Source: an uncultured Candidatus Saccharibacteria bacterium (GTDB lineage Bacteria; Patescibacteriota; Minisyncoccia; GWC2-36-17; WO2-46-25). From it: a stretch of 45,156 nucleotides of DNA. The notes beneath the pieces were generated by a model that was not told the origin of the DNA, searched no databases, and was given only the letters and a program-made list of their open reading frames with translations. This document shows, one piece after another, positions 1 to 45,156 of the stretch. Both the position numbers and the translations under genes were made by a program. Every line of letters starts with the position of its first letter. Position 1 is the stretch's first letter. The stretch is taken from positions 1-45,156 of the forward strand of contig CAYIVQ010000001.1 in NCBI GenBank assembly GCA_964366905.1. The letters are read 5' to 3'.

Positions 1-2
1 AT

Positions 3-602
3 GGCAAAATCGTCAAAGAAGAAATCAATCCGATGAAAGTGAAGCCGGAATTGATGACGGAAAAAGCGTCAAAAGATATGCGCGAAAAACATGTTCGCGA
101 ATTCGCTGACGCGCTTTCCGATTATTTCTTGAATGTGTCCGAGATTCACCTTAAAGACAAAATGGACGAATTAGTCATAAAAAATTTAACGGGAGAGATG
201 TCTCTTGAAGAATTAAAAAAGATGGCGGCGCTTCCGATGCGAGATGGAGGACTTGGATTTGGAGAGGGAAGGACAGACGAATTGGTTGCGCGCTTGGAAA
301 TGATTATTTTCGAAAGCGAAATTCTAAAACAGGTAGATGATGAGAAAGCCCGTTTCCTGCCTTTAAATAAAGAAGTCGGCGAACTAAGAAGATATGTGTT
401 GTCCGATTACGGAAAGCCGCTGACTTTTTTACGGATTAAACGATTGGAAGAAGCGATAGGAAGCTTGATTCGGGGCGCCATAGACGGCGAAGCGTTTTCA
501 AAAATAGTCGCTCTACCGGAAATTTCCGGCGGAGTCGGGTTTCCCGCTTCCGACGCGTTCCGATTTTTATTTAAATTGAAAATGGTGATGAAGCTGCGTT
601 AA
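3..602 (+). CDS. hypothetical protein, 5' end probably beyond the window edge
   Basis: Frame is open from nt 3 to the stop at 600-602. First in-window ATG is at 33. Two internal copies of an ALPxxxGG[LV]GF motif. No family recognised. Confidence 0.5.
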   Translation, partial: GKIVKEEINPMKVKPELMTEKASKDMREKHVREFADALSDYFLNVSEIHLKDKMDELVIKNLTGEMSLEELKKMAALPMRDGGLGFGEGRTDELVARLEMIIFESEILKQVDDEKARFLPLNKEVGELRRYVLSDYGKPLTFLRIKRLEEAIGSLIRGAIDGEAFSKIVALPEISGGVGFPASDAFRFLFKLKMVMKLR

Positions 603-636
603 CAACTTAACGGCTTACAACTAACAACTTATAACT

Positions 637-768
637 CTTTGAATTACGAAATAGCCATTTTTGTGTCTTTCTGAGGGAGTCAGCGACCGAAGAATCTCTG
701 AAAATCAAGTAAAATACTAGATTCTTCGCAAGCTCAGAATGACAAACTACGCATTTCGTAATTCAAAG
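637..768. mobile_element. 132-bp MITE-like element, copy A
   Basis: Perfect 16-bp terminal inverted repeats CTTTGAATTACGAAAT / ATTTCGTAATTCAAAG. Flanked by direct TATAACT (630-636 and 769-775). Internal 10-bp stem CGAAGAATCT/AGATTCTTCG. Identical to copy B at 5829-5960. Confidence 0.8.
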
Positions 769-814
769 TATAACTACAATAATGAAAAAGTTTAGATTTT
801 TAGATTAGTTATTT

Positions 815-2752: not shown

Positions 2753-2771
2753 AACTAATTTCTAATAAACT

Positions 2772-2813
2772 AAATTACGCATATAATTACTATAGTAACT
2801 ATACACGTAATTT
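2772..2813. promoter_or_regulatory. 42-bp imperfect palindrome (18/21 pairs) upstream of the PaaX-like gene; candidate operator and/or terminator of the permease gene
   Basis: AAATTACGCATATAATTACTA|TAGTAACTATACACGTAATTT centred on CTATAG. Related to the perfect palindrome at 3410-3467. Ends 21 nt before the ATG at 2835. Confidence 0.5.
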
Positions 2814-2834: not shown

Positions 2835-3419
2835 ATGAAAAAACAAAATAGATCAAAAAATTTACCAAGATTAAAAATTGGCCACACAGGTCAAAAGATT
2901 TTGCTTTTAATCAGCGCTGGGTTAACACTTAGTTTAACACACAGACCGGATCAATATTTTCGAATCATCGCAAACACTAGATATGAATGGCAGAAAATCA
3001 ACAACAGATGTTTGCATGAAGCGATTAAAAGATTATATCAATCAAAGTTAATAGATTATAAAGAAAACAACGATGGGACGATTGTTTTAGTTTTATCCGA
3101 ACAGGGGACACAAAAAATATTAAAATATAATTTAGACACAATAAAATTACAGAGACATGATGAATGGGACGGATTATGGCGATTAGTGATATTTGATATT
3201 CCCGAGCATTTTAAGAAAGGAAGAAGCGCGTTATCAAATAAATTAAAACAACTCGGTTTTTACCCTCTTCAAAAAAGTGTTTTTATTTATCCTTATGAGT
3301 GTAAAAATGAAACTGATTTTATTATTGAGTTTTTTGGAATGAAACCATATGTTAGATTCATTTTAGCCAAAGAAACTGATATTGATTTAGACTTGAAAAA
3401 TAAATTTAATCTAACCTAA
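2835..3419 (+). CDS. PaaX-like regulator (winged-helix N-terminus, PaaX/Cas2-like C-terminal domain)
   Basis: WDGLWRLVIFDIPEHFKKGRSALSNKLKQLGFYPLQKSVFIYP matches the PaaX-family C-terminal signature as I remember it. The central HEAIKRLYQSKLIDYKENNDGTIVLVLSEQG looks like a wHTH. Confidence 0.55.
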   Translation: MKKQNRSKNLPRLKIGHTGQKILLLISAGLTLSLTHRPDQYFRIIANTRYEWQKINNRCLHEAIKRLYQSKLIDYKENNDGTIVLVLSEQGTQKILKYNLDTIKLQRHDEWDGLWRLVIFDIPEHFKKGRSALSNKLKQLGFYPLQKSVFIYPYECKNETDFIIEFFGMKPYVRFILAKETDIDLDLKNKFNLT

Positions 3420-3467
3420 ATTACGTGTATAATTACTATAGTAATTATACACGTAATTTAGGTTAGA
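3410..3467. repeat. 58-bp perfect palindrome between convergent PaaX-like gene and recG
   Basis: Verified base by base: 3438-k pairs with 3439+k for k=0..28, with no loop and no mismatch. Overlaps the stop codon at 3417-3419. Core shared with 2772-2813. Confidence 0.9.
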
Positions 3468-3485
3468 GATGATTATTGTTTATGT

Positions 3486-5774
3486 TTATTCAAAATGAAT
3501 TTTTGCGTTAAATCGCGCAAGATAATTTTTCAGTTTCGGATGGCGGGTTAGTTCCGAGTCTTCTTTAAGCAATTGTATTGCTTCTTCGCGCGCTTCTTTT
3601 ATTAAAATTTTGTTAGTGAGCGACGCCATGGTTAAATCCGGCAGACCGGATTGGCGAGTGCCGAGAAAATCCCCCGGCCCTCTGATTTCCAAATCCTTTT
3701 CCGCGAGCTCAAACCCGTTCTGGCAATTTATTAATGCTTTCAGCCGTCTGCTATTTGCCAATGTCGTATTTTCCGCGAATAAAAGGCAGTATGATTGATA
3801 TTCTCCTCGGCCCACTCTGCCTCTGAATTGATGAAGTTGCGCCAAACCGAAATGCTCCGCCCCTTCAATAAGCATCAAAACGGCATTTGGCACATCAATG
3901 CCGACTTCTATGACTGAAGTTGAAACTAAAATATTGAAGCGATTGGCCTTGAATTCCTTCATGATCCGCTCTTTTTCTTGCGGCTTCATTTTGCCGTGCA
4001 ACATTTCTATTTTCAGATCGGGGAAAATTTCACTGGAAAGTTTTTGATATTCTTCTTTGACAGTTTTGACTTCTTTTTTAAGCAATTCTTGCTGATATGT
4101 TTTTTCGCTTTTGATTTTTGAATCTTCCTGCGCGTCTATTCTCGGACAAATCACAAATGCTTGCCTGCCTTTTCTAATCTCTTCGCGAACAAAATCATAA
4201 GCAGACGTTCGTTCTGAAGGAGTTATTATTTTTGTAACAATATTTTTACGATTTTTCGGCATCTCATTAAGCAAAGAAATATCCAAATCGCCGTATAACG
4301 TGAGAGTGAGAGTGCGCGGTATCGGAGTGGCAGTCATTGATAAAAGATGGGGCATCAGACCGCTTACCGTTTTATATCTTTGCAAAAGTTCAGCCCGCTG
4401 ATTAACACCAAAACGATGCTGTTCATCAAGCACGATAAGTCCTAAGGAAGGGAAAGAGACTTTTTCTGAAATTAGCGCGTGAGTTCCAGTAGTAATTAAA
4501 AGCTTTTTGGACGTTAGCTGATTTAAAAATTCCTGTTTTTTCAGCTTATATTCCGACTTAACTTCAGAATCAAATATTTCAGCGCTGTTGCCGGTAAGCA
4601 GACCGACATTAAAGCCAAATTCGGCAACCATACTGCTTAAAGTATGAAAATGCTGGCGGGCAAGCACTTCGGTTGGCGCCATTATGGCAATTTGGCGGCC
4701 TTTAGAAGCCGCGTTTAACGCGGCAATCGCCGCCACGACCGTTTTACCGGATCCAACATCGCCTTCAAGCAAGCGATTCATCGGGATATTTTTTGACATA
4801 TCCTGTAAAATTTCCCACGCGGCCTTGCGTTGAGAATCAGTCAGCGTGAAAGAAAGAGAAGCGACGAATTTTTTTGTTTTTTCTATGTCAAAAGGTATCG
4901 GTGGCGCGGCAGATTTTTTTATTTTTCGTCTTGCTTTCAGTATAATCAGTTGAATGAGAAGCAATTCTTCAAAAGCCAGCCGTCTTTTCGCTTCTTTCAC
5001 TTCATCAGTATTTTCAGGAAAATGAATTTTTAAAATAGCGGAGCTTATGGGAAGCAGATTATGCTTCTTTATGATTTCTTGCGGGAGAATCTCTTCCATT
5101 TGCGCGGCTTGCCCGTCATACGGCGAGTGCTCCCGTTTTGTCCAAGAGCTTTGCGATTGGCGCACAAAACGCAGTCCAGCGAGGCTTTTGCCGAGTCGTG
5201 GCTCCGCTTTCTCCGTTCGCGGGTTGCCGATCGCGTTTTTCACCAGGAATCTGATCCAACGAGAAGTAATGCCCGCGGTTTCACGATATATCGGCACCAA
5301 TCCTCCAGTATGCGTATGTTCGGAAGTCGAACTTTCAAATATTCTTTCATAAGCGGGATTTTGCAAATATAAAGAGTTGCCGTAAGAAACCGCCTTTCCG
5401 GCCAAATTCACTAAACTGCCGATTTTCAGATTTCGAATCAAAAACGGCTGGTTGAACCACACTGCTTTTATCATGCCGCTTTCATCTGAAACTTCCGCTT
5501 CAGTAACATACATATTTTTTTTCCATGTCCGTTTGTTCGTTATTTTATCTATTTTCGCGCGAATAGTCGCAGTTTCACCAGGAGTCAATTCGGCTATATT
5601 TACAATTTTTGAGAAATCATCATATCGAAATGGAATATGCCGCAAAAGATCATAAACAGTATGAATGCCCAAAACTTTAAGTGGTTTGACAATCTTATAG
5701 TTGACTCCTTTTAACTTTTCTATCGGGTCGGATAAACCGATATTTTTTATATGAGTTTTACCTATCATAAACAA
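3486..5774 (-). CDS. recG: ATP-dependent DNA helicase RecG
   Basis: 762 aa. N-terminal wedge region (HIPFRYDD), Walker A GDVGSGKT, DEQHRFG box, C-terminal helicase motifs (QLHQFRGRVGRG), TRG-like end. Confidence 0.93.
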   Translation of the reverse strand: MFMIGKTHIKNIGLSDPIEKLKGVNYKIVKPLKVLGIHTVYDLLRHIPFRYDDFSKIVNIAELTPGETATIRAKIDKITNKRTWKKNMYVTEAEVSDESGMIKAVWFNQPFLIRNLKIGSLVNLAGKAVSYGNSLYLQNPAYERIFESSTSEHTHTGGLVPIYRETAGITSRWIRFLVKNAIGNPRTEKAEPRLGKSLAGLRFVRQSQSSWTKREHSPYDGQAAQMEEILPQEIIKKHNLLPISSAILKIHFPENTDEVKEAKRRLAFEELLLIQLIILKARRKIKKSAAPPIPFDIEKTKKFVASLSFTLTDSQRKAAWEILQDMSKNIPMNRLLEGDVGSGKTVVAAIAALNAASKGRQIAIMAPTEVLARQHFHTLSSMVAEFGFNVGLLTGNSAEIFDSEVKSEYKLKKQEFLNQLTSKKLLITTGTHALISEKVSFPSLGLIVLDEQHRFGVNQRAELLQRYKTVSGLMPHLLSMTATPIPRTLTLTLYGDLDISLLNEMPKNRKNIVTKIITPSERTSAYDFVREEIRKGRQAFVICPRIDAQEDSKIKSEKTYQQELLKKEVKTVKEEYQKLSSEIFPDLKIEMLHGKMKPQEKERIMKEFKANRFNILVSTSVIEVGIDVPNAVLMLIEGAEHFGLAQLHQFRGRVGRGEYQSYCLLFAENTTLANSRRLKALINCQNGFELAEKDLEIRGPGDFLGTRQSGLPDLTMASLTNKILIKEAREEAIQLLKEDSELTRHPKLKNYLARFNAKIHFE
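5112..5228 (-). repeat. intragenic GC-rich repeat, 114-nt long form, in recG
   Basis: Read on the recG strand as (G)NPRTEKAEPRLGKSLAGLRFVRQSQSSWTKREHSPYDG. The 72-nt internal segment is identical to that at 24330-24401. Confidence 0.85.
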
Positions 5775-5828
5775 TATACTATCATGTTCTTTAGTATTTT
5801 TGAATTATATTATATAATAGCTATAATC

Positions 5829-5960
5829 CTTTGAATTACGAAATAGCCATTTTTGTGTCTTTCTGAGGGAGTCAGCGACCGAAGAATCTCTGAAAATCAA
5901 GTAAAATACTAGATTCTTCGCAAGCTCAGAATGACAAACTACGCATTTCGTAATTCAAAG
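5829..5960. mobile_element. 132-bp MITE-like element, copy B
   Basis: Identical to copy A. Flanked by direct TATAATC (5822-5828 and 5961-5967). Fills most of the recG / GGDEF divergent intergenic region. Confidence 0.8.
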
Positions 5961-5980
5961 TATAATCAGTAAAACACAAG

Positions 5981-9282: not shown

Positions 9283-9805
9283 TCTAAAATCTAAAATCGA
9301 ATCGATATTATTCATATCCGGCGACGCGTTAAGCGTAAAGCAGATTAAACACGCTTTGGGGGAAGAGATTGACAATGATAAAATAAAAAAAGCCGTCGAA
9401 GACTTGGGGAAAGAGTATCAAGACAAAGGATTAAGAATACTTTCCAAAGAAGAAAGAATCCAAATGGTAACCGCCCCGGAAAACGCGGCGATAATAGAAA
9501 AACTTGTTAAATCCCAACTGACGGAAGAATTAACGCCGGCGGCATTGGAAACTCTTGCTTGCGTCGCATACAAAGAGCCGATTTCAAAAATCGAGATTGA
9601 TGAATTAAGAGGGTTGAATTCTATTTTTTCATTGAGAAGCTTAATGATAAGGGGGCTAATTGAAAAGACCGCCTGCAAATCCGAGGTTGGAGAAAAAGCC
9701 GATTGCTTTAAAACAACATTGGATTTTTTGAAAAAATTAGGAATAGAAAAAGTAAGCGATTTGCCGAAGTTCAATGATTATGAAGAAATTACAAAGAATA
9801 ATTGA
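9275..9805 (+). CDS. scpB: segregation and condensation protein B
   Basis: IESILFISGDALSVKQI, LETLACVAYKEPISKIEIDELRG. 8-nt overlap with scpA. Confidence 0.85.
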   Translation: MSDLKSKIESILFISGDALSVKQIKHALGEEIDNDKIKKAVEDLGKEYQDKGLRILSKEERIQMVTAPENAAIIEKLVKSQLTEELTPAALETLACVAYKEPISKIEIDELRGLNSIFSLRSLMIRGLIEKTACKSEVGEKADCFKTTLDFLKKLGIEKVSDLPKFNDYEEITKNN

Positions 9806-10874
9806 TAACGCTGACAGCCAGACATTAAACAGCGCCAGATTTATATGCGTACTGGCTCTTGTTTTAATTTTCGGCGTGGTTTTATACCGACACGCTAAAT
9901 CTCCGCGGCTTGATGAACGGCTGGCTATCGCAAAAACCCAAACCGCAATGGCAGTTATGCAACCGCAATCACAACCGCAAAATAATCATGAAGAAGCCGG
10001 TGGCGACATTGGGATTGAAACGCCGATAATAAATTCAAATCAAAATAATAATAAAGAAAATAGTTTTTACGCCAATACGGCAAACCCGGTCGCTCCATTG
10101 ATGGTATTAAAAGACGATGTAAACGATGCCGCGTCATCTGAATCACTATCAGATTTTTCCGCAAGAGTGCTGATTGCCGTTGACGCCGCCGATGGAAGTA
10201 TTTTATTGAAAAAAGAAATGGATAAGAAATTGCCGATAGCAAGTGTTACGAAATTGATGACCGCGATAGCAGTGCTGGAAAATTTAAATTCTGAAGAAAA
10301 AATCAAAATAAGCCAAACCGCCATTGATACCGAGGGGTGGGTAGGCAAATTAATTGTCGGGGAAGAATTTTTAGCTATCGATTTGCTAAGAATAATGCTT
10401 GTCGCGTCTAGCAACGATGCAGCCGCCGCCTTTGCCGAGCACTTTGAGAAAAAAAATCTTAATTTAATTGATATAATGAACGAAAAAGCAAAAATGCTTG
10501 GCATGGTAAACACTTCTTTTAATAATCCGAGCGGATTGGACGCGCAAAACCATTATTCAACCGCCGCTGATTTGGCGCGGCTTGGAATTTACGTGGCAAA
10601 CAATCAGACAATTATCAAAATTATATCGCAAAAATCCGTTTCAATTTTTTCTGATAATACAAATATCTTGCACAACGCGCTTTCCACTAATCAACTTTTG
10701 CATCAGAACGTCACGGAAGTAATCGGCGGCAAAACAGGATATACTAAAGAAGCGCGGGGCTGTATTTTGAGTATTTTAAATATTAACGGAAGAAAAATAA
10801 TAAGCATAGTTTTGGGATCGGAAGATAGATTTGAGGAGACAAAGCAAATTATAAAAATCTTGAAAAATGGTTGA
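9774..10874 (+). CDS. D-alanyl-D-alanine carboxypeptidase (S11 PBP)
   Basis: SxxK (SVTK), SxN (SSN) and KTG (KTGYT) motifs in the right order. N-terminal membrane anchor. Exact start is uncertain (32-nt overlap with scpB). Confidence 0.82.
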   Translation: MIMKKLQRIIDNADSQTLNSARFICVLALVLIFGVVLYRHAKSPRLDERLAIAKTQTAMAVMQPQSQPQNNHEEAGGDIGIETPIINSNQNNNKENSFYANTANPVAPLMVLKDDVNDAASSESLSDFSARVLIAVDAADGSILLKKEMDKKLPIASVTKLMTAIAVLENLNSEEKIKISQTAIDTEGWVGKLIVGEEFLAIDLLRIMLVASSNDAAAAFAEHFEKKNLNLIDIMNEKAKMLGMVNTSFNNPSGLDAQNHYSTAADLARLGIYVANNQTIIKIISQKSVSIFSDNTNILHNALSTNQLLHQNVTEVIGGKTGYTKEARGCILSILNINGRKIISIVLGSEDRFEETKQIIKILKNG

Positions 10875-18733: not shown

Positions 18734-19300
18734 ATGAAAAAGCAAATAGAGCTTAATGCTAAAAAAGTTGAATATACCCTGAAAGTGAGCAAGCGGGCGC
18801 GAATGATGCGGCTGACTGTTTATTGCGGAGGCGATTTTGTGGTGACGGCTCCGCAAAGCGTAGGAGAAAATGTTATTGAGCAGTTTATCATTAAAAAATC
18901 ACAGTGGGTTATTGATAAGATAAATTATTTAAAACAGTTTCCCGCCGGAACTTTTACAAAAAGTAATCGGGGAGATTTTTTAAAACACAAAGATGTCGCG
19001 TTGAAGCTGGCGGAGAGGCAGATAGAATATTTTAATGATTTTTATAAACTCAAGTTTAATAAGATAAATATAAGAAATCAAAAAACTCGCTGGGGCAGCT
19101 GTTCTAAAAAAGGTAATTTGAATTTTAATTACAAAATCGTACTACTACCGCAACAACTCGCCGACTATATTATTGTCCATGAATTATGCCATCTTGGTGA
19201 ATTTAATCACTCTAAAAGATTTTGGAATCTGGTCGCCAAAATGATCCCAAACTATCAAGAGATGAGAAATGAGTTGAGGAAAAACAGAATTAGTTTATGA
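18734..19300 (+). CDS. M48/YgjP-like (DUF45) metal-dependent hydrolase
   Basis: RWGSCSKKGNLNFNYKIVLLPQQLADYIIVHELCHLGEFNHSKRFW (HExxH). Confidence 0.8.
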   Translation: MKKQIELNAKKVEYTLKVSKRARMMRLTVYCGGDFVVTAPQSVGENVIEQFIIKKSQWVIDKINYLKQFPAGTFTKSNRGDFLKHKDVALKLAERQIEYFNDFYKLKFNKINIRNQKTRWGSCSKKGNLNFNYKIVLLPQQLADYIIVHELCHLGEFNHSKRFWNLVAKMIPNYQEMRNELRKNRISL

Positions 19301-19572
19301 ACTATTTCGTCTATATTCTCAAATGTGCTGATGATACTCTTTATGTCGGCTCTACTAATGATTTGGCAAAGAGGATTATTCAACATAATACGGCAAAGGC
19401 GGGGGCGCATTACACAAAAATCCGGCGGCCGGTGGAGCTGGTATATTCGGAAACTGTGGAAACTCTTTCAAGGGCGCTCAAGCGAGAAGCTGAAATTAAA
19501 CTCTGGCGCAGGGATAAGAAAATAAAACTCATTCAACCCGCGAACACAGAGAGCGGAGCAGTCGCCGTATGA
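19297..19572 (+). CDS. GIY-YIG nuclease-family protein (UPF0213-like)
   Basis: YFVYILKCADDTLYVGSTNDLAKRIIQH...REAEIK. The last 11 codons and the stop come from the intragenic repeat. Confidence 0.85.
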   Translation: MNYFVYILKCADDTLYVGSTNDLAKRIIQHNTAKAGAHYTKIRRPVELVYSETVETLSRALKREAEIKLWRRDKKIKLIQPANTESGAVAV

Positions 19573-19576
19573 CGGC
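19535..19576 (+). repeat. intragenic GC-rich repeat, 42-nt unit, supplying the GIY-YIG C-terminus and TGA
   Basis: AACCCGCGAACACAGAGAGCGGAGCAGTCGCCGTATGACGGC. Read in its third frame (ANTESGAVAV*), with TGA at 19570-19572. Confidence 0.85.
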
Positions 19577-23493: not shown

Positions 23494-24933
23494 CTATAAA
23501 ATATTTTTGCTTGCCGCGGTGCCGGCAACGAATCCGGTGGTCCAGCAGAGTTGGAGCGAATAGCCGCCGGATGGGCGGTCAATGTTGAGCATATCTCCGA
23601 TGATATAAAGATTGGGGAAAAGGCGCGAACGCATCGTCTTTGGATCAATTTCCTCAAGCGAAACTCCACCGCTAGTAATGACGGCTTTGTCCGCACCGAG
23701 AAGTTTGTCCGCGCGCATCGGCAGGTTTTTCAGGCAAGCGATTAATTTCATTCGCTCCTCGCGCGTGATGCTATTTACTACTGTTTCCGGATTGATTTTG
23801 CACTTCGCGATAATAATGGGAGCGAGAGCGGATGGAATAATGCTGTCCAATGAATTCCTGATTTTTTTATTGCTATGTTTTTTAAATAGATCTTTCAGCG
23901 CAATATCAAGCTGTTCGTTATTTAATGATGGGAGAATATCAAGCGACATAACCACTTCTCCGCTTTTTAAAAGTTCGCCGATTGCCTTGCTCATATGCAA
24001 TACCGCGGGTCCGCTGATACCGAAATGGGTAAAAAGAATTTTTCCTCTATTTGTATTATGAACGATTTCATTTTGAATAGCGTTGATTTTTACATCCGCA
24101 ATGCTGACGCCGGAAAGTTGTTTTGCCCATGAGTCTTTTATGGCAACCGGCACAAGCGAAGGAGTGGGTATAGCGATATTATGCCCGAGCTTTTTTAGCC
24201 ACGCAAAGCCATCTCCCGCAGATCCGGTTTCCGGGTGAGAGCCTCCGCCGGCGGCAACAATGATCGCGTTGGCATGGATTTCTTTACCGTCGCGCAATAT
24301 TACGCCAGTTGCCGTCATACGACGACTGCTCCCGTTTTGTCCAAGAGCTTTGCGATTGGCGCACAAAACGCAGTCCAGCGAGGCTTTTGCCGAGTCGTGG
24401 CTCCGCTCTCTGCGTTCGCGGGTTGCCATCATACGGTGACTGCTCCGCTCTCTGCGTTCGCGGGTTGCCTTTGGCATAGACGCGCGGGAAACAATGATAT
24501 CACTAACAGGAGAATCGGATATTACCGTTACTCCGCCTTCGCGCATATATTTCACTAACACATCCCATACCGATCTCGCGCTGTCGCTGGCGGGGAAAAC
24601 CCGCTGTTCATTTTCTATTTTAGTCGCCATCCCGCGAGTATTGAAAAAGTTGAGAGTATCTTGAACGCTCCATTGCGAAAAAGCAGAAAAAAGAAATTTG
24701 CCGTCGTCTTTAAATTTTTCCAAGAATTTTCGCGTATTAAATTCCGCGTTGGTGAGATTGCATCTGCCTCCGCCGGTGATCAAAAGCTTTTTGCCAAGCG
24801 TATCATTTTTTTCAATCAACGCCACGCGCGCTCCGCATTCAGCCGCCCGCCCGGCCGCCATCATCCCCGCAGACCCTCCGCCGATGACAATGACATCCCA
24901 TATGTTATCCGTTTTTGATTTCATATAATTCAT
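23494..24933 (-). CDS. HI0933/BaiN-like FAD-dependent oxidoreductase
   Basis: WDVIVIGGGSAGMMAA, LITGGGRCNLTN, C-terminal GGYSLQLCWTTG. Interrupted in frame by 156 nt of repeat. Confidence 0.85.
   Translation of the reverse strand: MNYMKSKTDNIWDVIVIGGGSAGMMAAGRAAECGARVALIEKNDTLGKKLLITGGGRCNLTNAEFNTRKFLEKFKDDGKFLFSAFSQWSVQDTLNFFNTRGMATKIENEQRVFPASDSARSVWDVLVKYMREGGVTVISDSPVSDIIVSRASMPKATRERRERSSHRMMATRERRERSHDSAKASLDCVLCANRKALGQNGSSRRMTATGVILRDGKEIHANAIIVAAGGGSHPETGSAGDGFAWLKKLGHNIAIPTPSLVPVAIKDSWAKQLSGVSIADVKINAIQNEIVHNTNRGKILFTHFGISGPAVLHMSKAIGELLKSGEVVMSLDILPSLNNEQLDIALKDLFKKHSNKKIRNSLDSIIPSALAPIIIAKCKINPETVVNSITREERMKLIACLKNLPMRADKLLGADKAVITSGGVSLEEIDPKTMRSRLFPNLYIIGDMLNIDRPSGGYSLQLCWTTGFVAGTAASKNIL
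24311..24469 (-). repeat. intragenic GC-rich repeat, tandem 114-nt + 42-nt units
   Basis: 24311-24424 (long) and 24425-24466 (short), plus GCC. Translated on the gene strand in the alternative frame as ATRERRERSSHRMM-ATRERRERSHDSAKASLDCVLCANRKALGQNGSSRRMT. Confidence 0.9.
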
Positions 24934-25012: not shown

Positions 25013-26041
25013 ATGACAAAAGGATTTTGGGAAAAAGATAAGTCGCTTTTCACGCTTGCGCCAATGGCGGACGTGACGGACGCGGCATTCCGGCAAATTA
25101 TTGCCAAATACAGCAGGCCTTATGGCCCCGACGCAATATGGACGGAATTTGTTTCCTGTGACGGCTTGTGTTCTGACGGCAAAGACGCACTGATGCATAA
25201 TCTCTGGTTCACGGAAGTCGAGCGCCCGATTGTGGCGCAATTTTTCGGATCCAAGCCGGATAATTTTTACCGGTGCGCTTTGCTTGCTCAAGAACTCGGT
25301 TTTGACGGCATTGATATCAATATGGGATGTCCGGATAAAAAAGTTGAAAAACAGAATGCCGGCGCGGCGCTGATGCGCAATCATGAATTGGCTCAAAAAA
25401 TAATCATTGAAACGAAGCGTGGAGCGGGAAATCTGCCTGTGTCTGTTAAAACCCGCATCGGGTACGATTCCGATATTTTAGACGAATGGCTGCCAAGATT
25501 GCTTGAAACGGAACCGGACGCCATCACAATTCACGCGCGCACGCGCAAAGAAATGTCTTTAGTGCCAGCTCGCTGGGAAGCGATAGCGCGAGCGGTAGAA
25601 ATCGCACGCCGATATGATTCTTCGCCGAATCGCGCGCTGATTATAGGAAACGGAGATATCGTGAGCATGATAGACGCGGAAGAAAAAGTGCGGCAATCAG
25701 GCGCGGACGGCGCGATGATAGGGCGGGGGATTTTCGGCAACCCATGGTTTTTTAATAGAGAAAAAGATATAAACACAATAAGCATTGAAGAAAAATTATT
25801 AGTGCTGATTGAACACGCTTTTTTGTTTGAAAAATTATTTGCCGGCAACCCGCGAACAGAGAGAGCGGAGCAGTCGTCGTATGACGGCATAAAAAGTTTT
25901 AGCGTAATGAAAAAGCATTTTAAAGCGTATGTGAGCGGATTTGACGGGGCCAAAGATTTGCGAATTAAACTAATGGCCGCGCGCGACGCCAACGACGTCG
26001 CGCAAATCGTAGAAAAATATCGTGCTTTTTTTGTAAAGTAA
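25013..26041 (+). CDS. tRNA-dihydrouridine synthase
   Basis: LAPMADVTDAAFR, DGIDINMGCP, ITIHARTR, GNGDI, IGRG. Confidence 0.9.
   Translation: MTKGFWEKDKSLFTLAPMADVTDAAFRQIIAKYSRPYGPDAIWTEFVSCDGLCSDGKDALMHNLWFTEVERPIVAQFFGSKPDNFYRCALLAQELGFDGIDINMGCPDKKVEKQNAGAALMRNHELAQKIIIETKRGAGNLPVSVKTRIGYDSDILDEWLPRLLETEPDAITIHARTRKEMSLVPARWEAIARAVEIARRYDSSPNRALIIGNGDIVSMIDAEEKVRQSGADGAMIGRGIFGNPWFFNREKDINTISIEEKLLVLIEHAFLFEKLFAGNPRTERAEQSSYDGIKSFSVMKKHFKAYVSGFDGAKDLRIKLMAARDANDVAQIVEKYRAFFVK
25847..25888 (+). repeat. intragenic GC-rich repeat, 42-nt unit, in dus
   Basis: AACCCGCGAACAGAGAGAGCGGAGCAGTCGTCGTATGACGGC read as NPRTERAEQSSYDG. Confidence 0.85.
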
Positions 26042-28565: not shown

Positions 28566-30416
28566 ATGAAAAAAACCGGTCCGACAATCAGAATATTGGA
28601 ATTGTTCAAAAGCCGAAAGAAAGCGGTTCTGATAATGGCGGTTTTTATCACGGCCTCGACAGGACTTGATTTGTCCGTGCCTCTTATTTCTCAAAAACTG
28701 ATTGACAGGCTTATTGAATTTTTCAAAACAGGCGGAGCGCCGCCATTTGGTTTTCTTTTTATATCTGCAATCGGTATTTTAGCTGCTACCATCTTGAGTC
28801 GCGTCTTCAGTTCGCTTTATAATTACAATCTTTTTAAAACCGTGACTCAAGTGGAAGATGAGGCAAGACATGCGGCTTTTGAAAAATATTTGCGTTTGCA
28901 CGCTCTATTTCATCACAAATCATCAAGCGGCCAAATTATCGGCAGGATTGAGCGGGGCGGCGGGGCAATTTACGCAATCGCGCATGATATTTTCGGCCAC
29001 AATCTCATACCGCCGCTAATAGTGTTTATCAGCACATTGGGAGTGCTTTTATTTAAAAATCCATTTATCGCTTTGGTAGTATTCGTGCCATTTCCTCTTT
29101 ACCTTTTAACCATACGGCGGCTTACCGATAAAATATATAATATTGAGAAAGTGGTTAACGAGCAATTTGAAGATGTATCTAAAGAAGCGTATGACGTGGC
29201 CGGCAATGTGCTGACCGTCAAAAAATTCGCTGAAGAGAACGCGGAAGCTGCTAAGCAAAAAAGATTGATGGATAAAGCGAGGCTGACGCAATACGGAGCT
29301 GAACAGCTTTGGAATGTATTAGAAAATATCCAAACATTATTCGCGACCTTAGGTAGAATAGCGGTTATTATTTTGGGAGGCTTTCTAGTCTTGAAAGGTA
29401 TGAGCACTATCGGCGAATTTGTATTGTTCGTTTCCCTTCAAAATATGGTGTATTCTCCTTTAGTGAAATTATCAATCGTATTTCCTCGCTTGCGACGCAA
29501 CACAGCCCGCGCGGAGCGTTTATTTGATATAATAGATGAACCTATCAGCGTTACCGACAAGCTGGACGCGAAAACGCTGCCTCCGCTGGAAAATTCAATT
29601 ATATTCCACGATGTTTCATTCCGCTATGGCAACCCGCAAACGCAGAGAGCAGAGCAGTCATCGTATGATGGCCAAGCTCATCAATGGGCTGTACAAAATA
29701 TCAATATTGAAATTCCGGCGCGCGCGACAGTGGCGCTGGTGGGAAGAAGCGGTAGCGGCAAAACCACTTTTATCAATTTATTGCTTCGCTCATACGACCC
29801 GACAGAAGGAGATATATTGATTGATGGGCAGAATCTGAAGGATGTTAAACGCGAAAGTTTGCTTAAGCAAGTAGCTGTAGTTCCGCAAGAGGTAGATCTC
29901 TTTTCCCGCTCTATTTTAGGCAATATCGCGTACGGGAAGCCGGAAGTAAGTCGTGAAGAAGTCATTCAGGCGGCAAAGACCGCTCTCGCGCATGACTTTA
30001 TTATGAAAACAGAGAATAGATATGATACTATAGTAGGGGAACGAGGCATGAAGCTTTCCGGAGGCGAACGCCAGCGGATCGGAATCGCGCGGGCTGTATT
30101 GCGCGACCCGAAAATCCTGATTTTAGACGAAGCTACCAGCCATTTAGATACCGAAAGCGAACAACTAATCTCTCAAGCAACAGACGATTTAGTAAAAAAC
30201 AGGACAACTATTATCATCGCGCATCGCCTCTCCACAGTTTTAAACGCTGATATGATTTTAGTGTTCAATGATGGAAAAATTGAAGCAAGCGGAAAACACA
30301 ATGAATTATTGAAAACAAGCGCCACATATCAAAAACTTTATTCTTTGCAGTTCCGCGATAACGACAACCCGCGAACACAGAGAGCGGAGCAGTCGCCGTA
30401 TGACGACAAATCTTAA
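28566..30416 (+). CDS. ABC exporter, fused permease/ATPase (MsbA-like)
   Basis: Six-TM N-terminal half. NBD with GRSGSGKTT, LSGGERQRIGIARA, ILILDEATSHLD. Confidence 0.92.
   Translation: MKKTGPTIRILELFKSRKKAVLIMAVFITASTGLDLSVPLISQKLIDRLIEFFKTGGAPPFGFLFISAIGILAATILSRVFSSLYNYNLFKTVTQVEDEARHAAFEKYLRLHALFHHKSSSGQIIGRIERGGGAIYAIAHDIFGHNLIPPLIVFISTLGVLLFKNPFIALVVFVPFPLYLLTIRRLTDKIYNIEKVVNEQFEDVSKEAYDVAGNVLTVKKFAEENAEAAKQKRLMDKARLTQYGAEQLWNVLENIQTLFATLGRIAVIILGGFLVLKGMSTIGEFVLFVSLQNMVYSPLVKLSIVFPRLRRNTARAERLFDIIDEPISVTDKLDAKTLPPLENSIIFHDVSFRYGNPQTQRAEQSSYDGQAHQWAVQNINIEIPARATVALVGRSGSGKTTFINLLLRSYDPTEGDILIDGQNLKDVKRESLLKQVAVVPQEVDLFSRSILGNIAYGKPEVSREEVIQAAKTALAHDFIMKTENRYDTIVGERGMKLSGGERQRIGIARAVLRDPKILILDEATSHLDTESEQLISQATDDLVKNRTTIIIAHRLSTVLNADMILVFNDGKIEASGKHNELLKTSATYQKLYSLQFRDNDNPRTQRAEQSPYDDKS
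29631..29672 (+). repeat. intragenic GC-rich repeat, 42-nt unit, in the ABC exporter NBD
   Basis: AACCCGCAAACGCAGAGAGCAGAGCAGTCATCGTATGATGGC read as NPQTQRAEQSSYDG, between FRYG and the Walker A strand. Confidence 0.85.
30366..30407 (+). repeat. intragenic GC-rich repeat, 42-nt unit, forming the ABC exporter C-terminal tail
   Basis: AACCCGCGAACACAGAGAGCGGAGCAGTCGCCGTATGACGAC read as NPRTQRAEQSPYDD, 3 codons before the stop. Confidence 0.85.
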
Positions 30417-35597: not shown

Positions 35598-36601
35598 GCT
35601 TTGATTATAAATTTACTACCGAGGTAAAAATCATATCCGCTCATCGGTTTCTTACCTTCCGGCTGGACTGTTTCCAAAATCAGGCAATCTTTAGCAGTAT
35701 TTAGCGCTAATTTTTTGTCGCTGGTCAAGAAAAAACTCATAGGCGGCAATTTATTTCCACACTCTGAAATTCTTGCTTTTAATATTTTTAATATTTTCTT
35801 TTTTGATTTGTGATTCTTGATTTGTGATTCATAATTCATGTATGCCCCAGGCCATGGATTAAACGCTCTTATCATCCGTTCTATATATTCCGCATCCATA
35901 TCCGGCTTGATTTCACCGTCTTCTTTCTGAAATATTTTAGTCAATGTGGCTTTTGAATCGTTCTGCTCTTTTGGTTGGATTTTGCCGGCAAACCAAAGCG
36001 ACAAAACCTCAAGAAGCAAATCGGCGCCAACTTCAGCCATTTTCCGCATCAGAGTAATCGCGGTTTCGTCCAAAGCAATTGGAAACGCTTTTTGCGCCAA
36101 TATCGGTCCATGGTCCAATTCCTCGTCCACAACCATAATCGTCGGACCGGTTTCTTTATGGCCTTCCAAAATCGCAGTCTGAACAGGGGATGCGCCGCGC
36201 AAAAGCGGCAAAAGAGAGCCATGAACATTTAATATGCCGAATGGCGGAATATCTAATATCTCTTGCGGAATAATTTTCCCATAAGCGGCCACGATAATTA
36301 TATCGGGTTTTTCTTCCTTGATTTTAGCTATGACGCCAGCATCTTTTAATTTATCGGGTTGAAAAATTTTGATACCGCCCTTGATTCGTGATTCGTGATT
36401 CATGATTCTTTGTTTAACCGGCGGGGAAGTGAGAATTTGTTTCCTGCCTGTCGGCTTGTCTGGTTGTGTTATAACTAAATCAGGTTTGTATATTTCTGAT
36501 TGAATAAGTCTATCCAGAATATCAGCCGCAAGTTCGGTAGTGCCCATAAATATTATACGATGTTTATTTATCATATTCTTAATTCTTGATTCATAATTCA
36601 T
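35594..36601 (-). CDS. fmt: methionyl-tRNA formyltransferase
   Basis: IIFMGT, VAAYGKIIP, NVHGSLLPLLRGASPVQ, PWPGAY. The true start may be the downstream MINKH. Confidence 0.9.
   Translation of the reverse strand: MNYESRIKNMINKHRIIFMGTTELAADILDRLIQSEIYKPDLVITQPDKPTGRKQILTSPPVKQRIMNHESRIKGGIKIFQPDKLKDAGVIAKIKEEKPDIIIVAAYGKIIPQEILDIPPFGILNVHGSLLPLLRGASPVQTAILEGHKETGPTIMVVDEELDHGPILAQKAFPIALDETAITLMRKMAEVGADLLLEVLSLWFAGKIQPKEQNDSKATLTKIFQKEDGEIKPDMDAEYIERMIRAFNPWPGAYMNYESQIKNHKSKKKILKILKARISECGNKLPPMSFFLTSDKKLALNTAKDCLILETVQPEGKKPMSGYDFYLGSKFIIKA
35804..35838 (-). repeat. period-7 repeat motif H1 inside fmt
   Basis: TGATTTG TGATTCT TGATTTG TGATTCA TAATTCA on the + strand. Translated as MNYESQIKNHKS. 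Confidence 0.8.
36382..36409 (-). repeat. period-7 repeat motif H2 inside fmt
   Basis: TGATTCG TGATTCG TGATTCA TGATTCT on the + strand. Translated as RIMNHESRI. Confidence 0.85.
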
Positions 36602-36608
36602 GATTCGT
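36574..36608 (-). repeat. period-7 repeat motif H3 spanning the def stop / fmt start
   Basis: TATTCTT AATTCTT GATTCAT AATTCAT GATTCGT on the + strand. Encodes the fmt MNYESRIKN and the def ...ITNHEL*. Confidence 0.8.
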
Positions 36609-44101: not shown

Positions 44102-45156
44102 TAAGAGTCGGTTTTGAATGCGAACAATTGGAGGGAAATAGGTTTGGAGTGGGGCATACTCTCGCCCAGCTTTTGGAAGTGTTCGCGCAAATTCCGGAGA
44201 TAGAAAAACAATTCCGGTTTGTTTTACATTTCAAAAAAGAAATCCCGAAAGATAATTTTTTATCGCATCCGGTTTTTGAAAAAAGAATTTTAACAGGAGG
44301 GATAATCCCGCCCAGTTTTAATGTTTTCTATCATATCCTTATTCCGATTGCGTATTGGCGCGATAAACTAGACTTATACTTTTTCCCTTCATACATGCTA
44401 CCGGCGTTTTTTGTCGGCAAATCTATCGTTGTGCTGACCAATGATGTTTATTGGGAAGCGCATCATAGCAATCTTCCATTCAAATACCGCTTAGCTTACA
44501 GATTATTTTGCTGGTGGGCGGCAAAACGAGCCGATAAGATTTTGACTATTTCGGAATTTTCCGCCAGTGAATTGCGAAAGTTTTATAATATTTCCCGCGA
44601 AAAAATCTTTGTGAACTCATGGGGATTGGAAAAAATATTTCAAGAACTACCTAAAGACGAAAAATATCTCTCGGAAATTCAAAAAATTAAAATCCAATTT
44701 GGCATTGAGAATAAATTCTTCCTTTCCATTGGTCAAGCGTTCCCGCGCAGACATATTAAAGAAGCAATGCTCGCGTTCGCTTCAATCGCGAATCAATATT
44801 CGGACACGCAATATCTTGTCACCGCTACTGACAAATATGAACCGCCTATATTGGAGAATTTAGTCAAAGAAATCAACCAAAAAGCCGGCAGACGAGCGAT
44901 TATTTACGTCAAATATCTTGATCGAAAAATATTGCCGCATTTGATGAACGAAACGCTCGCGCTGATTTACGTTTCCGATAAAGAAGCGCTCGGCCTGCCG
45001 CCGCTTGAAGCGCTCGCTTGCGGCCGTCCGGCGATCGTGAAAGACAACGAGATCTCGCGCGAACTTTTCGGCGAGCAAGGATATTTCGTTGCAGATACAA
45101 ACAACCCGCGAACGCAGAGAGCGGAGCAGTCACCGTATGATGGCAACCCGCGAACG
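44098..45156 (+). CDS. GT4 (GT-B fold) glycosyltransferase, 3' end beyond the window
   Basis: Not in the ORF track because no stop is reached. ATG at 44098 overlaps the upstream TGA. My own translation gives MIRVGFECEQLEGNRFGVGH...SDKEALGLPPLEALACGRPAIV (E-x7-E type motif), then runs into the 42-nt repeats. Confidence 0.78.
   Translation, partial: MIRVGFECEQLEGNRFGVGHTLAQLLEVFAQIPEIEKQFRFVLHFKKEIPKDNFLSHPVFEKRILTGGIIPPSFNVFYHILIPIAYWRDKLDLYFFPSYMLPAFFVGKSIVVLTNDVYWEAHHSNLPFKYRLAYRLFCWWAAKRADKILTISEFSASELRKFYNISREKIFVNSWGLEKIFQELPKDEKYLSEIQKIKIQFGIENKFFLSIGQAFPRRHIKEAMLAFASIANQYSDTQYLVTATDKYEPPILENLVKEINQKAGRRAIIYVKYLDRKILPHLMNETLALIYVSDKEALGLPPLEALACGRPAIVKDNEISRELFGEQGYFVADTNNPRTQRAEQSPYDGNPRT
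45103..45156 (+). repeat. intragenic GC-rich repeat, tandem units (second truncated by the window edge)
   Basis: 45103-45144 is AACCCGCGAACGCAGAGAGCGGAGCAGTCACCGTATGATGGC. It restarts at 45145. Read as NPRTQRAEQSPYDG-NPRT. Confidence 0.85.

What the first reader, a model, noticed from the sequence alone, without database searches (positions are those of the whole stretch)
5112..5228. The 114-nt form is a 42-nt unit carrying a nested 72-nt insert bounded by a GGAGC duplication, and that insert is identical in recG and the flavoprotein gene
On the sense strand the long form reads ...GCGGAGC|CACGACTCGGCAAAAGCCTCGCTGGACTGCGTTTTGTGCGCCAATCGCAAAGCTCTTGGACAAAACGGGAGC|A(G/C)TCG... The short form reads GCGGAGC|AGTC at the same point. 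The extra 72 nt ends in GGAGC, the same pentamer that precedes it, which looks like a target duplication.

The 72 nt are identical between 5131-5202 and 24330-24401. The surrounding 42-nt parts differ at several positions, so the insert is either younger or more constrained than its carrier. It contains an 8-bp hairpin stem (CGTTTTGT ... ACAAAACG), and its first bases (ACGACT) can pair with AGTCGT in the carrier 3' part.

Seventy-two is again a multiple of three, and all six frames of the long form are open except for the terminal TGA frame. In recG it adds 38 residues (NPRTEKAEPRLGKSLAGLRFVRQSQSSWTKREHSPYDG) upstream of the helicase core.
Basis: seen in the sequence. Interest (0 to 1): 0.75.

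Follow-up and report, generated by a model that had tools for sequence, protein, structure and literature searches.

The report
Nested mini mobile repeat inside genes
A 72-base hairpin-bearing mini-element sits inside a 42-base repeat that is itself inserted in frame in working genes (recG and a flavoprotein gene) of a groundwater Patescibacteria (CPR) bacterium. This is a small, apparently undescribed analogue of the "selfish DNA in protein-coding genes" known from Rickettsia.

Summary
The window holds two 114-nt long forms, in recG (5112-5225, minus strand) and in an HI0933-like flavoprotein gene (24311-24424, minus strand). Each is a 42-nt unit split after GGAGC by the same 72-nt module.

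The nested-insert reading holds:
- In metagenomes the module (69-72 nt, always CACGACT...GGGAGC) also lies in two other repeat families, at other sites, and as a bare tandem pair.
- Empty sites exist for two of those contexts.
- In all 20 nested copies it sits at the same point with GGAGC on both sides, and no intermediate lengths were seen.

GGAGC is not a fixed-length target duplication. The left flank shares 3-6 nt with the module's own end-to-start junction. The 42-nt unit behaves the same way at GACGGC|AA.

Close relatives (about 90% identical) lack the whole insert in recG and in the flavoprotein gene. One of them carries a long form in another gene. Units are always sense to the host gene and mostly in one frame. 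Modules in coding contexts are 69 or 72 nt; elsewhere they are 70-72 nt.

The best reading is a non-autonomous, translated, selfish mobile element. No transposase is in the window and the mechanism is inferred. Nothing matched in Rfam or the searched literature.

The parts
5112..5225 (-). 114-nt long form in recG (ORF 3486-5774, minus strand), made of the 42-nt unit plus the 72-nt module. It encodes NPRTEKAEPRLGKSLAGLRFVRQSQSSWTKREHSPYDG.
   Evidence: It is a clean 114-nt insertion against the empty site of the sister genome L055 (..GCGAT|CGGACAAGCC..), with 3 nt (CGG) shared. It is absent from five 92-93% identical RecG proteins. It maps to the wedge-helicase linker of RecG, between the stretches aligned to 1GM5 residues 110-274 and 282-775.
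5129..5200 (-). 72-nt module (CACGACTCGG...ACAAAACGGGAGC) nested in the recG unit.
   Evidence: It is identical to 24328-24399. It forms a hairpin, CGTTTTGT/ACAAAACG plus CCAA/TTGG.
24311..24424 (-). 114-nt long form in the HI0933-like flavoprotein gene (ORF 23494-24933, minus strand). It is read in another frame (ATRERRERSHDSAKASLDCVLCANRKALGQNGSSRRMT).
   Evidence: The closest orthologue P0129 (88% identical, 427 aa) lacks all 52 residues of the array.
24328..24399 (-). 72-nt module nested in the flavoprotein unit.
24425..24466 (-). Short 42-nt unit, in tandem with and upstream (sense) of the long form in the flavoprotein gene.
19535..19576 (+). Short 42-nt unit at the 3' end of the GIY-YIG ORF 19297-19572. 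Read in its third frame, it supplies the last 11 codons (PANTESGAVAV) and the TGA stop.
25847..25888 (+). Short 42-nt unit in frame in the Dus (tRNA-dihydrouridine synthase) gene 25013-26041 (NPRTERAEQSSYDG).
29631..29672 (+). Short 42-nt unit in frame in the ABC transporter gene 28566-30416, at the start of the ATPase domain (NPQTQRAEQSSYDG). Its 3' hairpin carries a compensatory G-C to A-U change.
30366..30407 (+). Short 42-nt unit in frame, 3 codons before the stop of the same ABC transporter gene.
45103..45156 (+). Tandem 42-nt units in a glycosyltransferase gene that runs off the window: one full unit and the start of a second.
   Evidence: (I1).
5822..5965 (.). 144-nt palindromic intergenic repeat (TGTCTTTCTGAGGGAG...CTCAGAATGACA), with further copies at 630-773 and 1036-1179. 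In other metagenome contigs this family is a landing pad for the same module at its GAGGGAG site. All three window copies are empty.
   Evidence: (D1). The 5822-5965 copy is absent from the sister genome L055.

Best explanation
Two nested families of very small, non-autonomous mobile DNA.

The 42-nt unit
- It inserts in single or tandem copies at sites that resemble its own end-to-start junction (..ATGACGGC|AA..), mostly inside genes.
- It is always in the sense orientation, and it is translated as a 14-residue hydrophilic loop or as a new C-terminus.

The 72-nt module
- It is a separate element with a conserved 12-bp bulged hairpin.
- It integrates, in one orientation, at sequences that share 3-6 nt with its own junction GGGAGC|CAC.
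- The unit contains GCGGAGC in its middle, so it is a preferred landing pad. That produces the 114-nt long form.
- The composite keeps the unit's ends. It can therefore still spread as a 114-nt unit, which is the state seen gained and lost between sister genomes.

Shown
- Nesting, and independence of the module from the carrier.
- Empty sites, and the junction-homology rule.
- Insertion polymorphism between relatives.
- Sense-only orientation.
- Lengths that are multiples of three in coding contexts, and depletion of stop codons.

Inferred
- The donor is a circular or tandem copy, joined by a site-specific or short-homology-guided strand transfer. The enzyme would be supplied in trans and could be of the HUH/IS200-IS605-RAYT kind or an integron/Xer-like recombinase.
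- The inserts are translated and tolerated rather than removed.
For: 1. Independence of the module. The same 69-72-nt sequence is bounded by CACGACT and GGGAG(C) in five contexts: the 42-nt unit, a TGTCATTCTGAGG palindromic repeat, a third element, two other sites, and a bare tandem pair in L038.
2. Empty sites. GGCGAGC|AACCAC (L052) compares with the filled L036/L054. CTGAGGGAG|TCAGCGACC (L039, L048, window 664/5856) compares with the filled L035 and others. There the inserted piece is the same circle cut 1 nt earlier, as expected for joining inside a short shared core.
3. The same rule holds for the unit. Over 49 arrays the left flank matches the unit's 3' end in a graded way: C 100%, G 82%, G 71%, C 59%, then about 50% out to position -8. 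The right flank is A/A at 59% and 67%.
4. Mobility.
   - recG is empty in L055 and in five 92-93% identical orthologues.
   - The flavoprotein gene is empty in P0129.
   - L055 has its own long form in the PBP gene, where the window is empty.
5. Spread. The unit occurs in MAGs labelled Azam-, Giovannoni-, Zambryski-, Lipton- and Saccharibacteria.
6. Fit to coding regions.
   - Modules in the coding carrier are 69 or 72 nt; elsewhere they are 70, 71 or 72 nt.
   - The window's module has 0 stops in six frames against about 5 expected.
   - Inserts fall in variable loops or linkers.
7. About 40 intragenic units are sense and none is antisense.
8. The hairpin is kept by a double compensatory change, CTGTTTGT/ACAAACAG to CGTTTTGT/ACAAAACG.
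9. Independent assemblies (ENA Hainich, an NCBI MAG, JGI, Logan) show the same structures.
Against: - No transposase, recombinase or reverse transcriptase lies in the 45-kb window or next to stand-alone modules. The mobilising enzyme is therefore unknown.
- Neither element has terminal inverted repeats or a fixed-length target duplication.
- Covariation rests on one event in one lineage. Folding energies are only modestly below shuffles, with z from -1.2 to -2.5.
- Sense-only orientation on both DNA strands of one replichore does not fit a purely replication-linked single-strand mechanism. It needs selection or a link to transcription.
- Translation of the inserts is inferred, not observed.
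- No same-locus 'unit without module' intermediate was found.
- Some metagenome contigs are chimeric across the repeat.
Confidence: 0.6

Rival explanations
1. The long form is ancestral. The 42-nt form is a deletion derivative, made by recombination or slippage between the two GGAGC direct repeats.
For: The two GGAGC repeats would allow precise deletion. This could well occur as a reverse reaction. Long/short pairs made by internal deletion are known for Correia elements (from memory). At recG and the flavoprotein gene, relatives lack everything, so no unit-only precursor is seen.
Against: - The module occurs without any 42-nt carrier in at least four other contexts and as a bare tandem, with empty sites.
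- Short units are much commoner and occur in lineages where no long form was found.
- No intermediate lengths were seen.
- The module is much less diverged than its carrier.
Confidence: 0.05
2. The module, or the whole long form, is a functional structured RNA acting in cis in the mRNA (stability, processing or translation control). Its spread reflects recruitment rather than selfish mobility.
For: - Units are strictly sense-oriented.
- The module's nucleotide sequence is conserved across populations, with mean column identity 91% including unpaired stretches.
- The hairpin is kept by a compensatory change.
- The module is better conserved than the translated carrier around it.
Against: - There is no Rfam match, even at E<=10.
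- Folding is not clearly better than shuffles.
- In L038 the tandem modules are antisense to the rplC and tuf genes that flank them.
- Host genes are unrelated housekeeping genes, and close relatives do without the insert.
- Coding-context lengths of 3n and stop depletion point to a constraint from translation.
Confidence: 0.12
3. The copies are made by templated synthesis from an RNA or DNA master (reverse transcriptase or template switching primed by short homology), not by cut-or-copy transposition. The conserved non-coding locus that contains the 42-nt sequence in other Parcubacteria would be the master.
For: - Junctions show variable short homology to the 3' end of the repeat, tandem copies occur, and the phase is fixed.
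- Orientation is sense-only and locations are mostly transcribed.
- Five MAGs of other classes carry the 42 nt, nearly invariant (one substitution each in L007 and L029), inside one conserved ~170-nt non-coding locus with variable hairpins.
Against: - No reverse transcriptase lies next to that locus or in the window.
- The locus has no homologue in the window or in the Azambacteria loci held.
- Its junctions obey the unit's own target rule, so it may simply be another insertion site.
- There is no poly-A or other retro-element signature.
Confidence: 0.1
4. The inserts are selected protein features (a portable flexible linker or tag) rather than selfish DNA.
For: 31 of 39 sense copies use one frame, giving the hydrophilic NPRTQRAEQSSYDG. 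They lie in loops and linkers.
Against: - The same DNA is read in all three frames in different genes: recG uses frame 1, the flavoprotein and PBP genes use frame 2, and GIY-YIG and rplJ use frame 3, which runs into the stop.
- Close orthologues lack the insert.
- Nucleotide identity, including at synonymous positions and in the flanks (GGC 100%), shows a DNA-level process.
Confidence: 0.05

Closest known systems
Rickettsia palindromic elements (RPE)
   Same: Short repeated DNA is inserted in frame in many unrelated housekeeping genes and is translated as extra peptide segments compatible with the fold. RPEs have been described as selfish DNA in coding regions (PMC10969869 for the summary; original reports from memory).
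   Different: RPEs are about 100-150 bp, palindromic over their length, and confined to Rickettsia. Here the basic unit is 42 nt without overall dyad symmetry. It forms tandem arrays, is strictly sense-oriented, carries a second nested element, and occurs in Patescibacteria. No sequence relationship was seen.
REP/BIME sequences with RAYT transposases, and IS200/IS605-derived mini-elements (PATE)
   Same: These are tiny hairpin-bearing repeats without terminal inverted repeats or target duplication. They insert next to a short specific sequence, are mobilised in trans, and are strand-specific (PMC3733652; mechanism from memory).
   Different: REPs are extragenic. Their orientation bias follows replication, whereas here it follows the host gene on both strands. 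The conserved GTAG/CGTC tags were not looked for, and no Y1 transposase was found in the window. The target match here is of variable length (3-6 nt).
Correia elements (Neisseria MITEs) with long and short forms
   Same: Two size classes of one repeat family differ by an internal block of about 50-70 nt. They are abundant and non-autonomous (from memory).
   Different: Correia elements have terminal inverted repeats and a TA duplication, are mostly intergenic, and the short form is an internal deletion. Here the extra block is an independent element with its own insertion sites.
Integron attC-type cassettes and Xer-exploiting integrative elements
   Same: A small folded single-strand site recombines at a short core. 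As a result each inserted unit is bounded by the same core, and arrays form in one orientation (from memory).
   Different: No GTTRRRY core was seen by eye in the sequences. No integrase or attI platform is apparent. There are many dispersed targets inside genes rather than one platform.
[quoted passage not shown]
   Same: These are intragenic tandem coding repeats with dyad symmetry, patchy distribution, and suspected horizontal and intragenomic mobility (PMC2996958).
   Different: PARCELs are 25-residue amphipathic domains in proteins of unknown function. They form long tracts and are not inserted into conserved enzymes. No nesting is described in the abstract read.

Membership tests
Classical MITE (DNA-transposon derivative) | Terminal inverted repeats | tested here: not met
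   The unit ends AACCCGCGAAC / GTATGACGGC and the module ends CACGACTCGGC / ACAGGGAGC are not inverted repeats.
Classical MITE (DNA-transposon derivative) | Target-site duplication of fixed length | tested here: not met
   The shared flank is 3-6 nt for the module (AGC, GAGC, GGAGC, AGGGAG) and 2-9 nt for the unit. It always resembles the element's own end.
Classical MITE (DNA-transposon derivative) | Small, multicopy, non-coding for a transposase, with insertion polymorphism | tested here: met
Rickettsia palindromic elements (as a kind: in-frame coding-region selfish repeats) | In-frame insertion in unrelated conserved genes, at sites tolerated by the fold | tested here: met
   RecG, flavoprotein, Dus, ABC transporter, glycosyltransferase, MnmA, an aminoacyl-tRNA synthetase-like protein, PBP and others. 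Inserts lie in variable loops and linkers.
Rickettsia palindromic elements (as a family) | Sequence or family relationship to RPE-1..10, in a Rickettsia host | tested here: not met
   The host is a Patescibacteria MAG. No Rfam or other match was found. Sequence comparison with RPE consensus sequences was not run.
IS200/IS605-type mini-element or REP (HUH Y1 transposition) | Insertion immediately 3' of a short specific target, with no duplication and one orientation | tested here: inconclusive
   The left flank always ends in (G)(G)AGC for the module and GGC for the unit. However, the element's own 3' end carries the same sequence, and the match length varies.
IS200/IS605-type mini-element or REP (HUH Y1 transposition) | Similar subterminal hairpins at both ends | tested here: not met
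   The module has one large hairpin near its 3' end and only a weak 3-bp hairpin near its 5' end. The two are unrelated in sequence.
IS200/IS605-type mini-element or REP (HUH Y1 transposition) | Y1 (TnpA/RAYT) gene in the genome | not testable with these tools
   None is present among the window's 36 scanned ORFs. The rest of the genome is not available.
IS200/IS605-type mini-element or REP (HUH Y1 transposition) | Orientation tied to the replication direction | tested here: not met
   Units are sense to their host gene on both strands, although cumulative GC skew rises over most of the window (1-34 kb), which holds both minus-strand host genes and most plus-strand units, as expected for one replichore.
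Integron cassette (attC) | R''/R' core sites (RYYYAAC / GTTRRRY), integrase and attI | tested here: not met
   No such cores were seen by eye in the unit or module. No integrase is in the window.
Known structured RNA family (Rfam 15) | Covariance-model match | tested here: not met
   Only tRNA-Gln matched in the window at gathering score. There were no matches at E<=10 over 24250-24520.
Translational bypass elements (T4 gene 60, mitochondrial byps) | Matched take-off and landing codons, with the segment not translated | not testable with these tools
   GGC precedes and ends most units. But lengths are 3n in coding contexts, frames are open, and no stop follows the take-off codon. This argues for read-through translation. 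It needs proteomics.

The most novel reading that the evidence does not exclude
The 42-, 72- and 114-nt repeats may be products of an undescribed insertion mechanism for ultra-small elements. One version is integration of tiny circular or tandem single-strand copies into the exposed non-template strand of transcribed genes. Another is templated copying from an RNA master. The conserved ~170-nt non-coding locus that contains the 42-nt sequence in other Parcubacteria would be the source or template. Either would explain the fixed phase, the variable short junction homology, the tandem arrays and the strictly gene-sense orientation.
Probability: 0.12. Interest if true: 0.85.

Novelty: new variant of a known kind. 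Interest (0 to 1): 0.6.

Why it matters
- It extends the RPE phenomenon, selfish repeats living in frame inside essential genes, to the Candidate Phyla Radiation. These genomes are tiny and otherwise streamlined. The elements here are only 42-114 nt, nest in one another, and are shared across several CPR classes.
- It offers a natural experiment on how proteins such as RecG, Dus and ABC ATPases tolerate 14-52-residue insertions.
- The sense-only orientation and the junction-homology rule point to a mobilisation mechanism that no described transposase family fully explains.
- There are practical consequences. These repeats break and mis-join MAG assemblies, inflate "hypothetical" ORFs, and alter protein lengths in CPR gene catalogues.

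Tried and rejected
1. tmRNA origin. The third frame of the unit, (Q)PANAESGAVVV*, looks like a tmRNA tag. ARAGORN finds no credible tmRNA in the five non-coding loci even at relaxed thresholds (at -ps80 only unrelated low-score calls in two loci), and Rfam finds none either.
2. RNase P RNA. The resemblance I saw by eye to the S-domain is not significant. The local alignment score against M1 RNA is no better than shuffles, and no Rfam hit appears at E<=10.
3. A conserved neighbour (reverse transcriptase or nuclease) of that non-coding locus. None was found.
4. Recurrent association with GIY-YIG genes. Only the window copy shows it. Other genes that take their 3' end from a unit or long form are rplJ and others.
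5. Peptide searches of protein databases for the long form gave only 4-5 hits. They are uninformative on spread, because 50%-identity representatives rarely carry the insert.
6. A same-locus 'unit without module' intermediate in flavoprotein or RecG cluster members. None was found. The length variants are alternative starts or contig breaks.
7. Viral carriage. The viral contig collection gave 0 hits for either pattern.
8. Thermodynamic evidence for a fold of the whole long form. The z-score is only -1.6 to -1.7.
9. Assembly artefact. Rejected, because the same structures appear in independent assemblies and sources.
10. Literature. No paper mentions the sequence, the peptide, or such repeats in CPR.
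Full report
**What is in the window**

The window is about 40% G+C and about 89% coding. Its genes are typical of Patescibacteria. Exact protein look-ups place it in an NCBI MAG named "Patescibacteria group bacterium" and in ENA assemblies of Hainich groundwater. The closest named relatives are Candidatus Azambacteria.

A 42-nt, roughly 60% G+C unit (AACCCGCGAACGCAGAGAGCGGAGCAGTCGTCGTATGACGGC) occurs nine times at seven sites. Its 25-nt 5' part matches 8 times, with none expected by chance.

Two copies are 114-nt long forms:
- 5112-5225 on the minus strand, in recG.
- 24311-24424 on the minus strand, in an HI0933-like flavoprotein gene, next to a short unit at 24425-24466.

In each long form the unit is split after GCGGAGC by 72 nt that begin CACGACT and end GGGAGC. 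The 72 nt are identical in the two genes. The carriers differ at 4 positions. The proposed ACGACT/AGTCGT pairing is broken in the recG copy and is irrelevant in other contexts.

**Is the 72 nt a nested insert?**

A scan of one genome per species with the carrier's 25-mer found 32 loci. Most are from a 50% G+C Candidatus Azambacteria MAG (JACQDT01). Others are from MAGs labelled Giovannoni-, Zambryski-, Lipton- and Saccharibacteria, and from unclassified Patescibacteria.

JACQDT01 has four long forms. Each has a 69-nt version of the module at exactly the same point, with GGAGC on both sides.

A metagenome scan with a module-only pattern found 22 more loci. Nine or more are again nested in the 42-nt unit. 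The rest are not:
- Seven lie inside a different palindromic repeat (TGTCATTCTGAGGGAG|...|TTTACGACCGAAGAATC...CAGGATGACA).
- Two lie inside a third element (..GAGTCGGCGAGC|...|AACCACAAATCGC).
- Three lie at other sites (..GTAGC|, ..TGAGC|).
- L038 has two bare tandem copies in the intergenic stretch between rplC and tuf.

Uninterrupted copies of the second and third carriers give the empty sites CTGAGGGAG|TCAGCGACC and GGCGAGC|AACCAC. The module is therefore an element in its own right. The deletion-derivative alternative is essentially excluded, and no intermediate lengths were seen.

**The insertion rule**

The module always ends GGGAG(C). The left flank ends AGC, GAGC, GGAGC or AGGGAG.

In the second carrier the inserted piece is C+CACGACT...GGGAG. 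This is the same circular sequence opened one base earlier. That is what joining within a short core shared by the target and the module's end-to-start junction (GGGAGC|CAC) would give. It is not what a fixed-length target duplication would give.

The 42-nt unit shows the same behaviour. Over 49 arrays:
- The left flank resembles the unit's own 3' end with graded strength: C 100%, G 82%, G 71%, C 59%, A 49%, G 45%, T 51%, A 49%.
- The first two bases after the array are A at 59% and 67%.
- At recG the empty site in the sister genome is GCGAT|CGGACAAG and the filled site is GCGAT[CGGCAACC...GTATGA]CGGGCAAG. This is exactly 114 nt, with CGG shared.

Because each element carries its own preferred target at its 3' end, tandem arrays follow naturally. 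Because the unit contains GCGGAGC, it is a landing pad for the module.

**Mobility**

- Five RecG proteins 92-93% identical to the window's lack precisely the 38 residues.
- The closest flavoprotein (88% identical) lacks all 52 residues of the short-plus-long array.
- The sister contig L055 (about 90% nucleotide identity over 10 kb) has its own long form in the D-Ala-D-Ala carboxypeptidase gene, where the window has none.
- That L055 copy shares the window-type stem, differs at 4/72 positions in the module, and differs at 8/25 in the 5' carrier half.

Three points follow. The module is better conserved than its carrier. The window-type module predates the split of the two lineages. What differs between sister genomes is the whole 114-nt composite, which may therefore now move as a unit.

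No same-locus "unit without module" state was found.

**Relation to coding**

Every unit that lies in a confidently identified gene is in the sense orientation (about 40 to 0). This includes units in the minus-strand genes of this window, and cumulative GC skew rises over most of the window, as expected for a single replichore. All three antisense frames are open. Target-like motifs are only 2-3 times commoner on the sense strand. Target frequency alone therefore does not explain the bias (P about 2e-6).

Other coding features:
- 31 of 39 copies use the frame giving NPRTQRAEQSSYDG. Others use the ATRERRERSSRRMT frame (flavoprotein, PBP). The third frame runs into the unit's TGA and supplies a new C-terminus (GIY-YIG here, rplJ in L018).
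- Modules in the coding carrier are 69 or 72 nt. Elsewhere they are 70, 71 or 72 nt.
- The window's module has no stop in any of six frames, against about 5 expected (P about 0.003).
- In RecG the insert falls between the stretches that align to T. maritima RecG 1GM5 residues 110-274 (wedge) and 282-775 (helicase), so it lies in the linker.
- In the flavoprotein it falls in a loop where other orthologues carry unrelated insertions.

Together these argue that the inserts are translated and tolerated, as in Rickettsia RPEs. This is inference: no expression data were available.

**Structure**

The module has a consistent hairpin. It consists of an 8-bp stem (CTGTTTGT/ACAAACAG in most copies, CGTTTTGT/ACAAAACG in the window lineage), a 2-3-nt bulge, CCAA/TTGG, and an 11-nt loop. 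Over the three counted helices, 97.6% of cells are paired, against 32-52% for slid controls. There are two pairs with double changes, but both come from one lineage.

Folding energies are only 1.2-2.5 sd below shuffles. The whole long form is at -1.6 to -1.7 sd. The unit's 3' part forms a small hairpin (GUCGUCGUAUGACGGC) with one compensatory G-C to A-U change in the copy at 29631. Rfam has nothing, even at E<=10.

**Mechanism**

None of the 36 scanned window ORFs is a transposase, recombinase or reverse transcriptase. By eye, none lies beside the stand-alone modules either. The elements are therefore non-autonomous here.

The anatomy excludes classical MITEs: there are no terminal inverted repeats and no fixed duplication. 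It partly resembles single-strand, target-guided systems such as IS200/IS605/RAYT or integron/Xer-like recombination. It fails specific membership tests for these (paired subterminal hairpins, replication-linked orientation, attC cores).

I commit to trans-mobilised, junction-homology-directed integration of a circular or tandem copy, with translation-compatible copies retained by selection (confidence 0.6 for the overall picture). The enzyme is unknown. The sense-only bias is unexplained; it could reflect selection or insertion into the non-template strand of transcribed DNA.

**An unexplained lead**

In five MAGs of other Parcubacteria classes, the only match of the 25-mer lies in one conserved ~170-nt non-coding locus. 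The locus has two variable hairpins and promoter-like boxes, and the 42 nt are nearly invariant there, with one substitution each in L007 and L029.

It is not a tmRNA, not RNase P RNA and not any Rfam family. It has no conserved neighbour and no homologue in the sequences held. It could be the source of the unit or an old insertion into an unknown small RNA gene.

**Comparison and novelty**

The closest known kind is the RPE type of in-frame selfish repeat (PMC10969869). This case differs in host phylum, size (42 nt), lack of overall palindromy, tandem arrays, strict sense orientation, the junction-homology rule and the nested second element. PARCELs (PMC2996958), Correia elements, REP/RAYT and attC cassettes each share some traits only.

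No paper in the searchable library mentions the sequence, the peptide, or such repeats in CPR. I rate it a new variant of a known kind, of moderate to high interest.

**Caveats**

- Metagenome contigs can be chimeric across the 114-nt repeat. L041, L050, L043 and L051 share their flanks in all four combinations.
- The taxon labels of some MAG contigs may be binning errors.

Noticed in passing
L007:4000-4260, L013:2880-3120, L014:1265-1460, L023:6125-6290, L029:4735-4900: A conserved ~170-nt non-coding locus in five MAGs of other Parcubacteria classes contains the 42-nt unit sequence nearly invariant (one substitution each in L007 and L029), between two variable hairpins. It has -10-like boxes upstream. 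It matches no Rfam family and is not a tmRNA or RNase P RNA. It may be the source of the unit, or an unknown small RNA gene carrying an old insertion.
   Followed up: partly
window 630-773, 1036-1179, 5822-5965: A ~144-nt palindromic intergenic repeat (TGTC(A/T)TTCTGAGG...CTCAGAATGACA), flanked in two of the three window copies (630-773, 5822-5965) by TTTGAATTACGAAAT inverted repeats. The copy next to recG is absent from the sister genome L055, so this family is also recently mobile. In other contigs it hosts the 72-nt module.
   Followed up: partly
window 2766-2813 and 3410-3467: A perfect 29+29-nt palindrome and 48-nt inverted repeats (AAATTACGTGTATAATTACTATAGTAATTATACACGTAATTT) flank the PaaX-like regulator gene 2835-3419. 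They look like operator sites.
   Followed up: no
window 19297-19572; L018:6773: A GIY-YIG nuclease gene takes its last 11 codons and its stop codon from a 42-nt unit. In JACQDT01 the rplJ (ribosomal protein L10) gene is extended in the same way by a long form. The repeats therefore remodel C-termini as well as loops.
   Followed up: partly
L041, L043, L050, L051; proteins P0248/P0249: Contigs share the left and right flanks of long forms in all four combinations. The NCBI MAG of this organism has the flavoprotein gene split into two partial proteins (173 + 306 = 479 aa). The 114-nt repeat breaks and mis-joins metagenome assemblies.
   Followed up: partly
L055:1-105 (sister genome), window 9774-10874: The sister genome carries a long form in the Peptidase_S11 (D-Ala-D-Ala carboxypeptidase) gene, in a low-complexity N-terminal linker. 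The window's orthologue is empty there. The 5' carrier half of that copy has diverged strongly (8/25) while the module has barely changed (4/72).
   Followed up: yes
window 35802-36609: Short TGATTC(G/T)TGATTC-type direct repeats (family D4 of the repeat scan) lie at both ends of the methionyl-tRNA formyltransferase gene region.
   Followed up: no
L011:7740-7990: An array of at least four units includes a variant subfamily (AACCCGCAAACATGGAAAGCGGAGC). It is interrupted by an assembly gap (a run of N), so arrays can be longer than the two or three units seen elsewhere.
   Followed up: no
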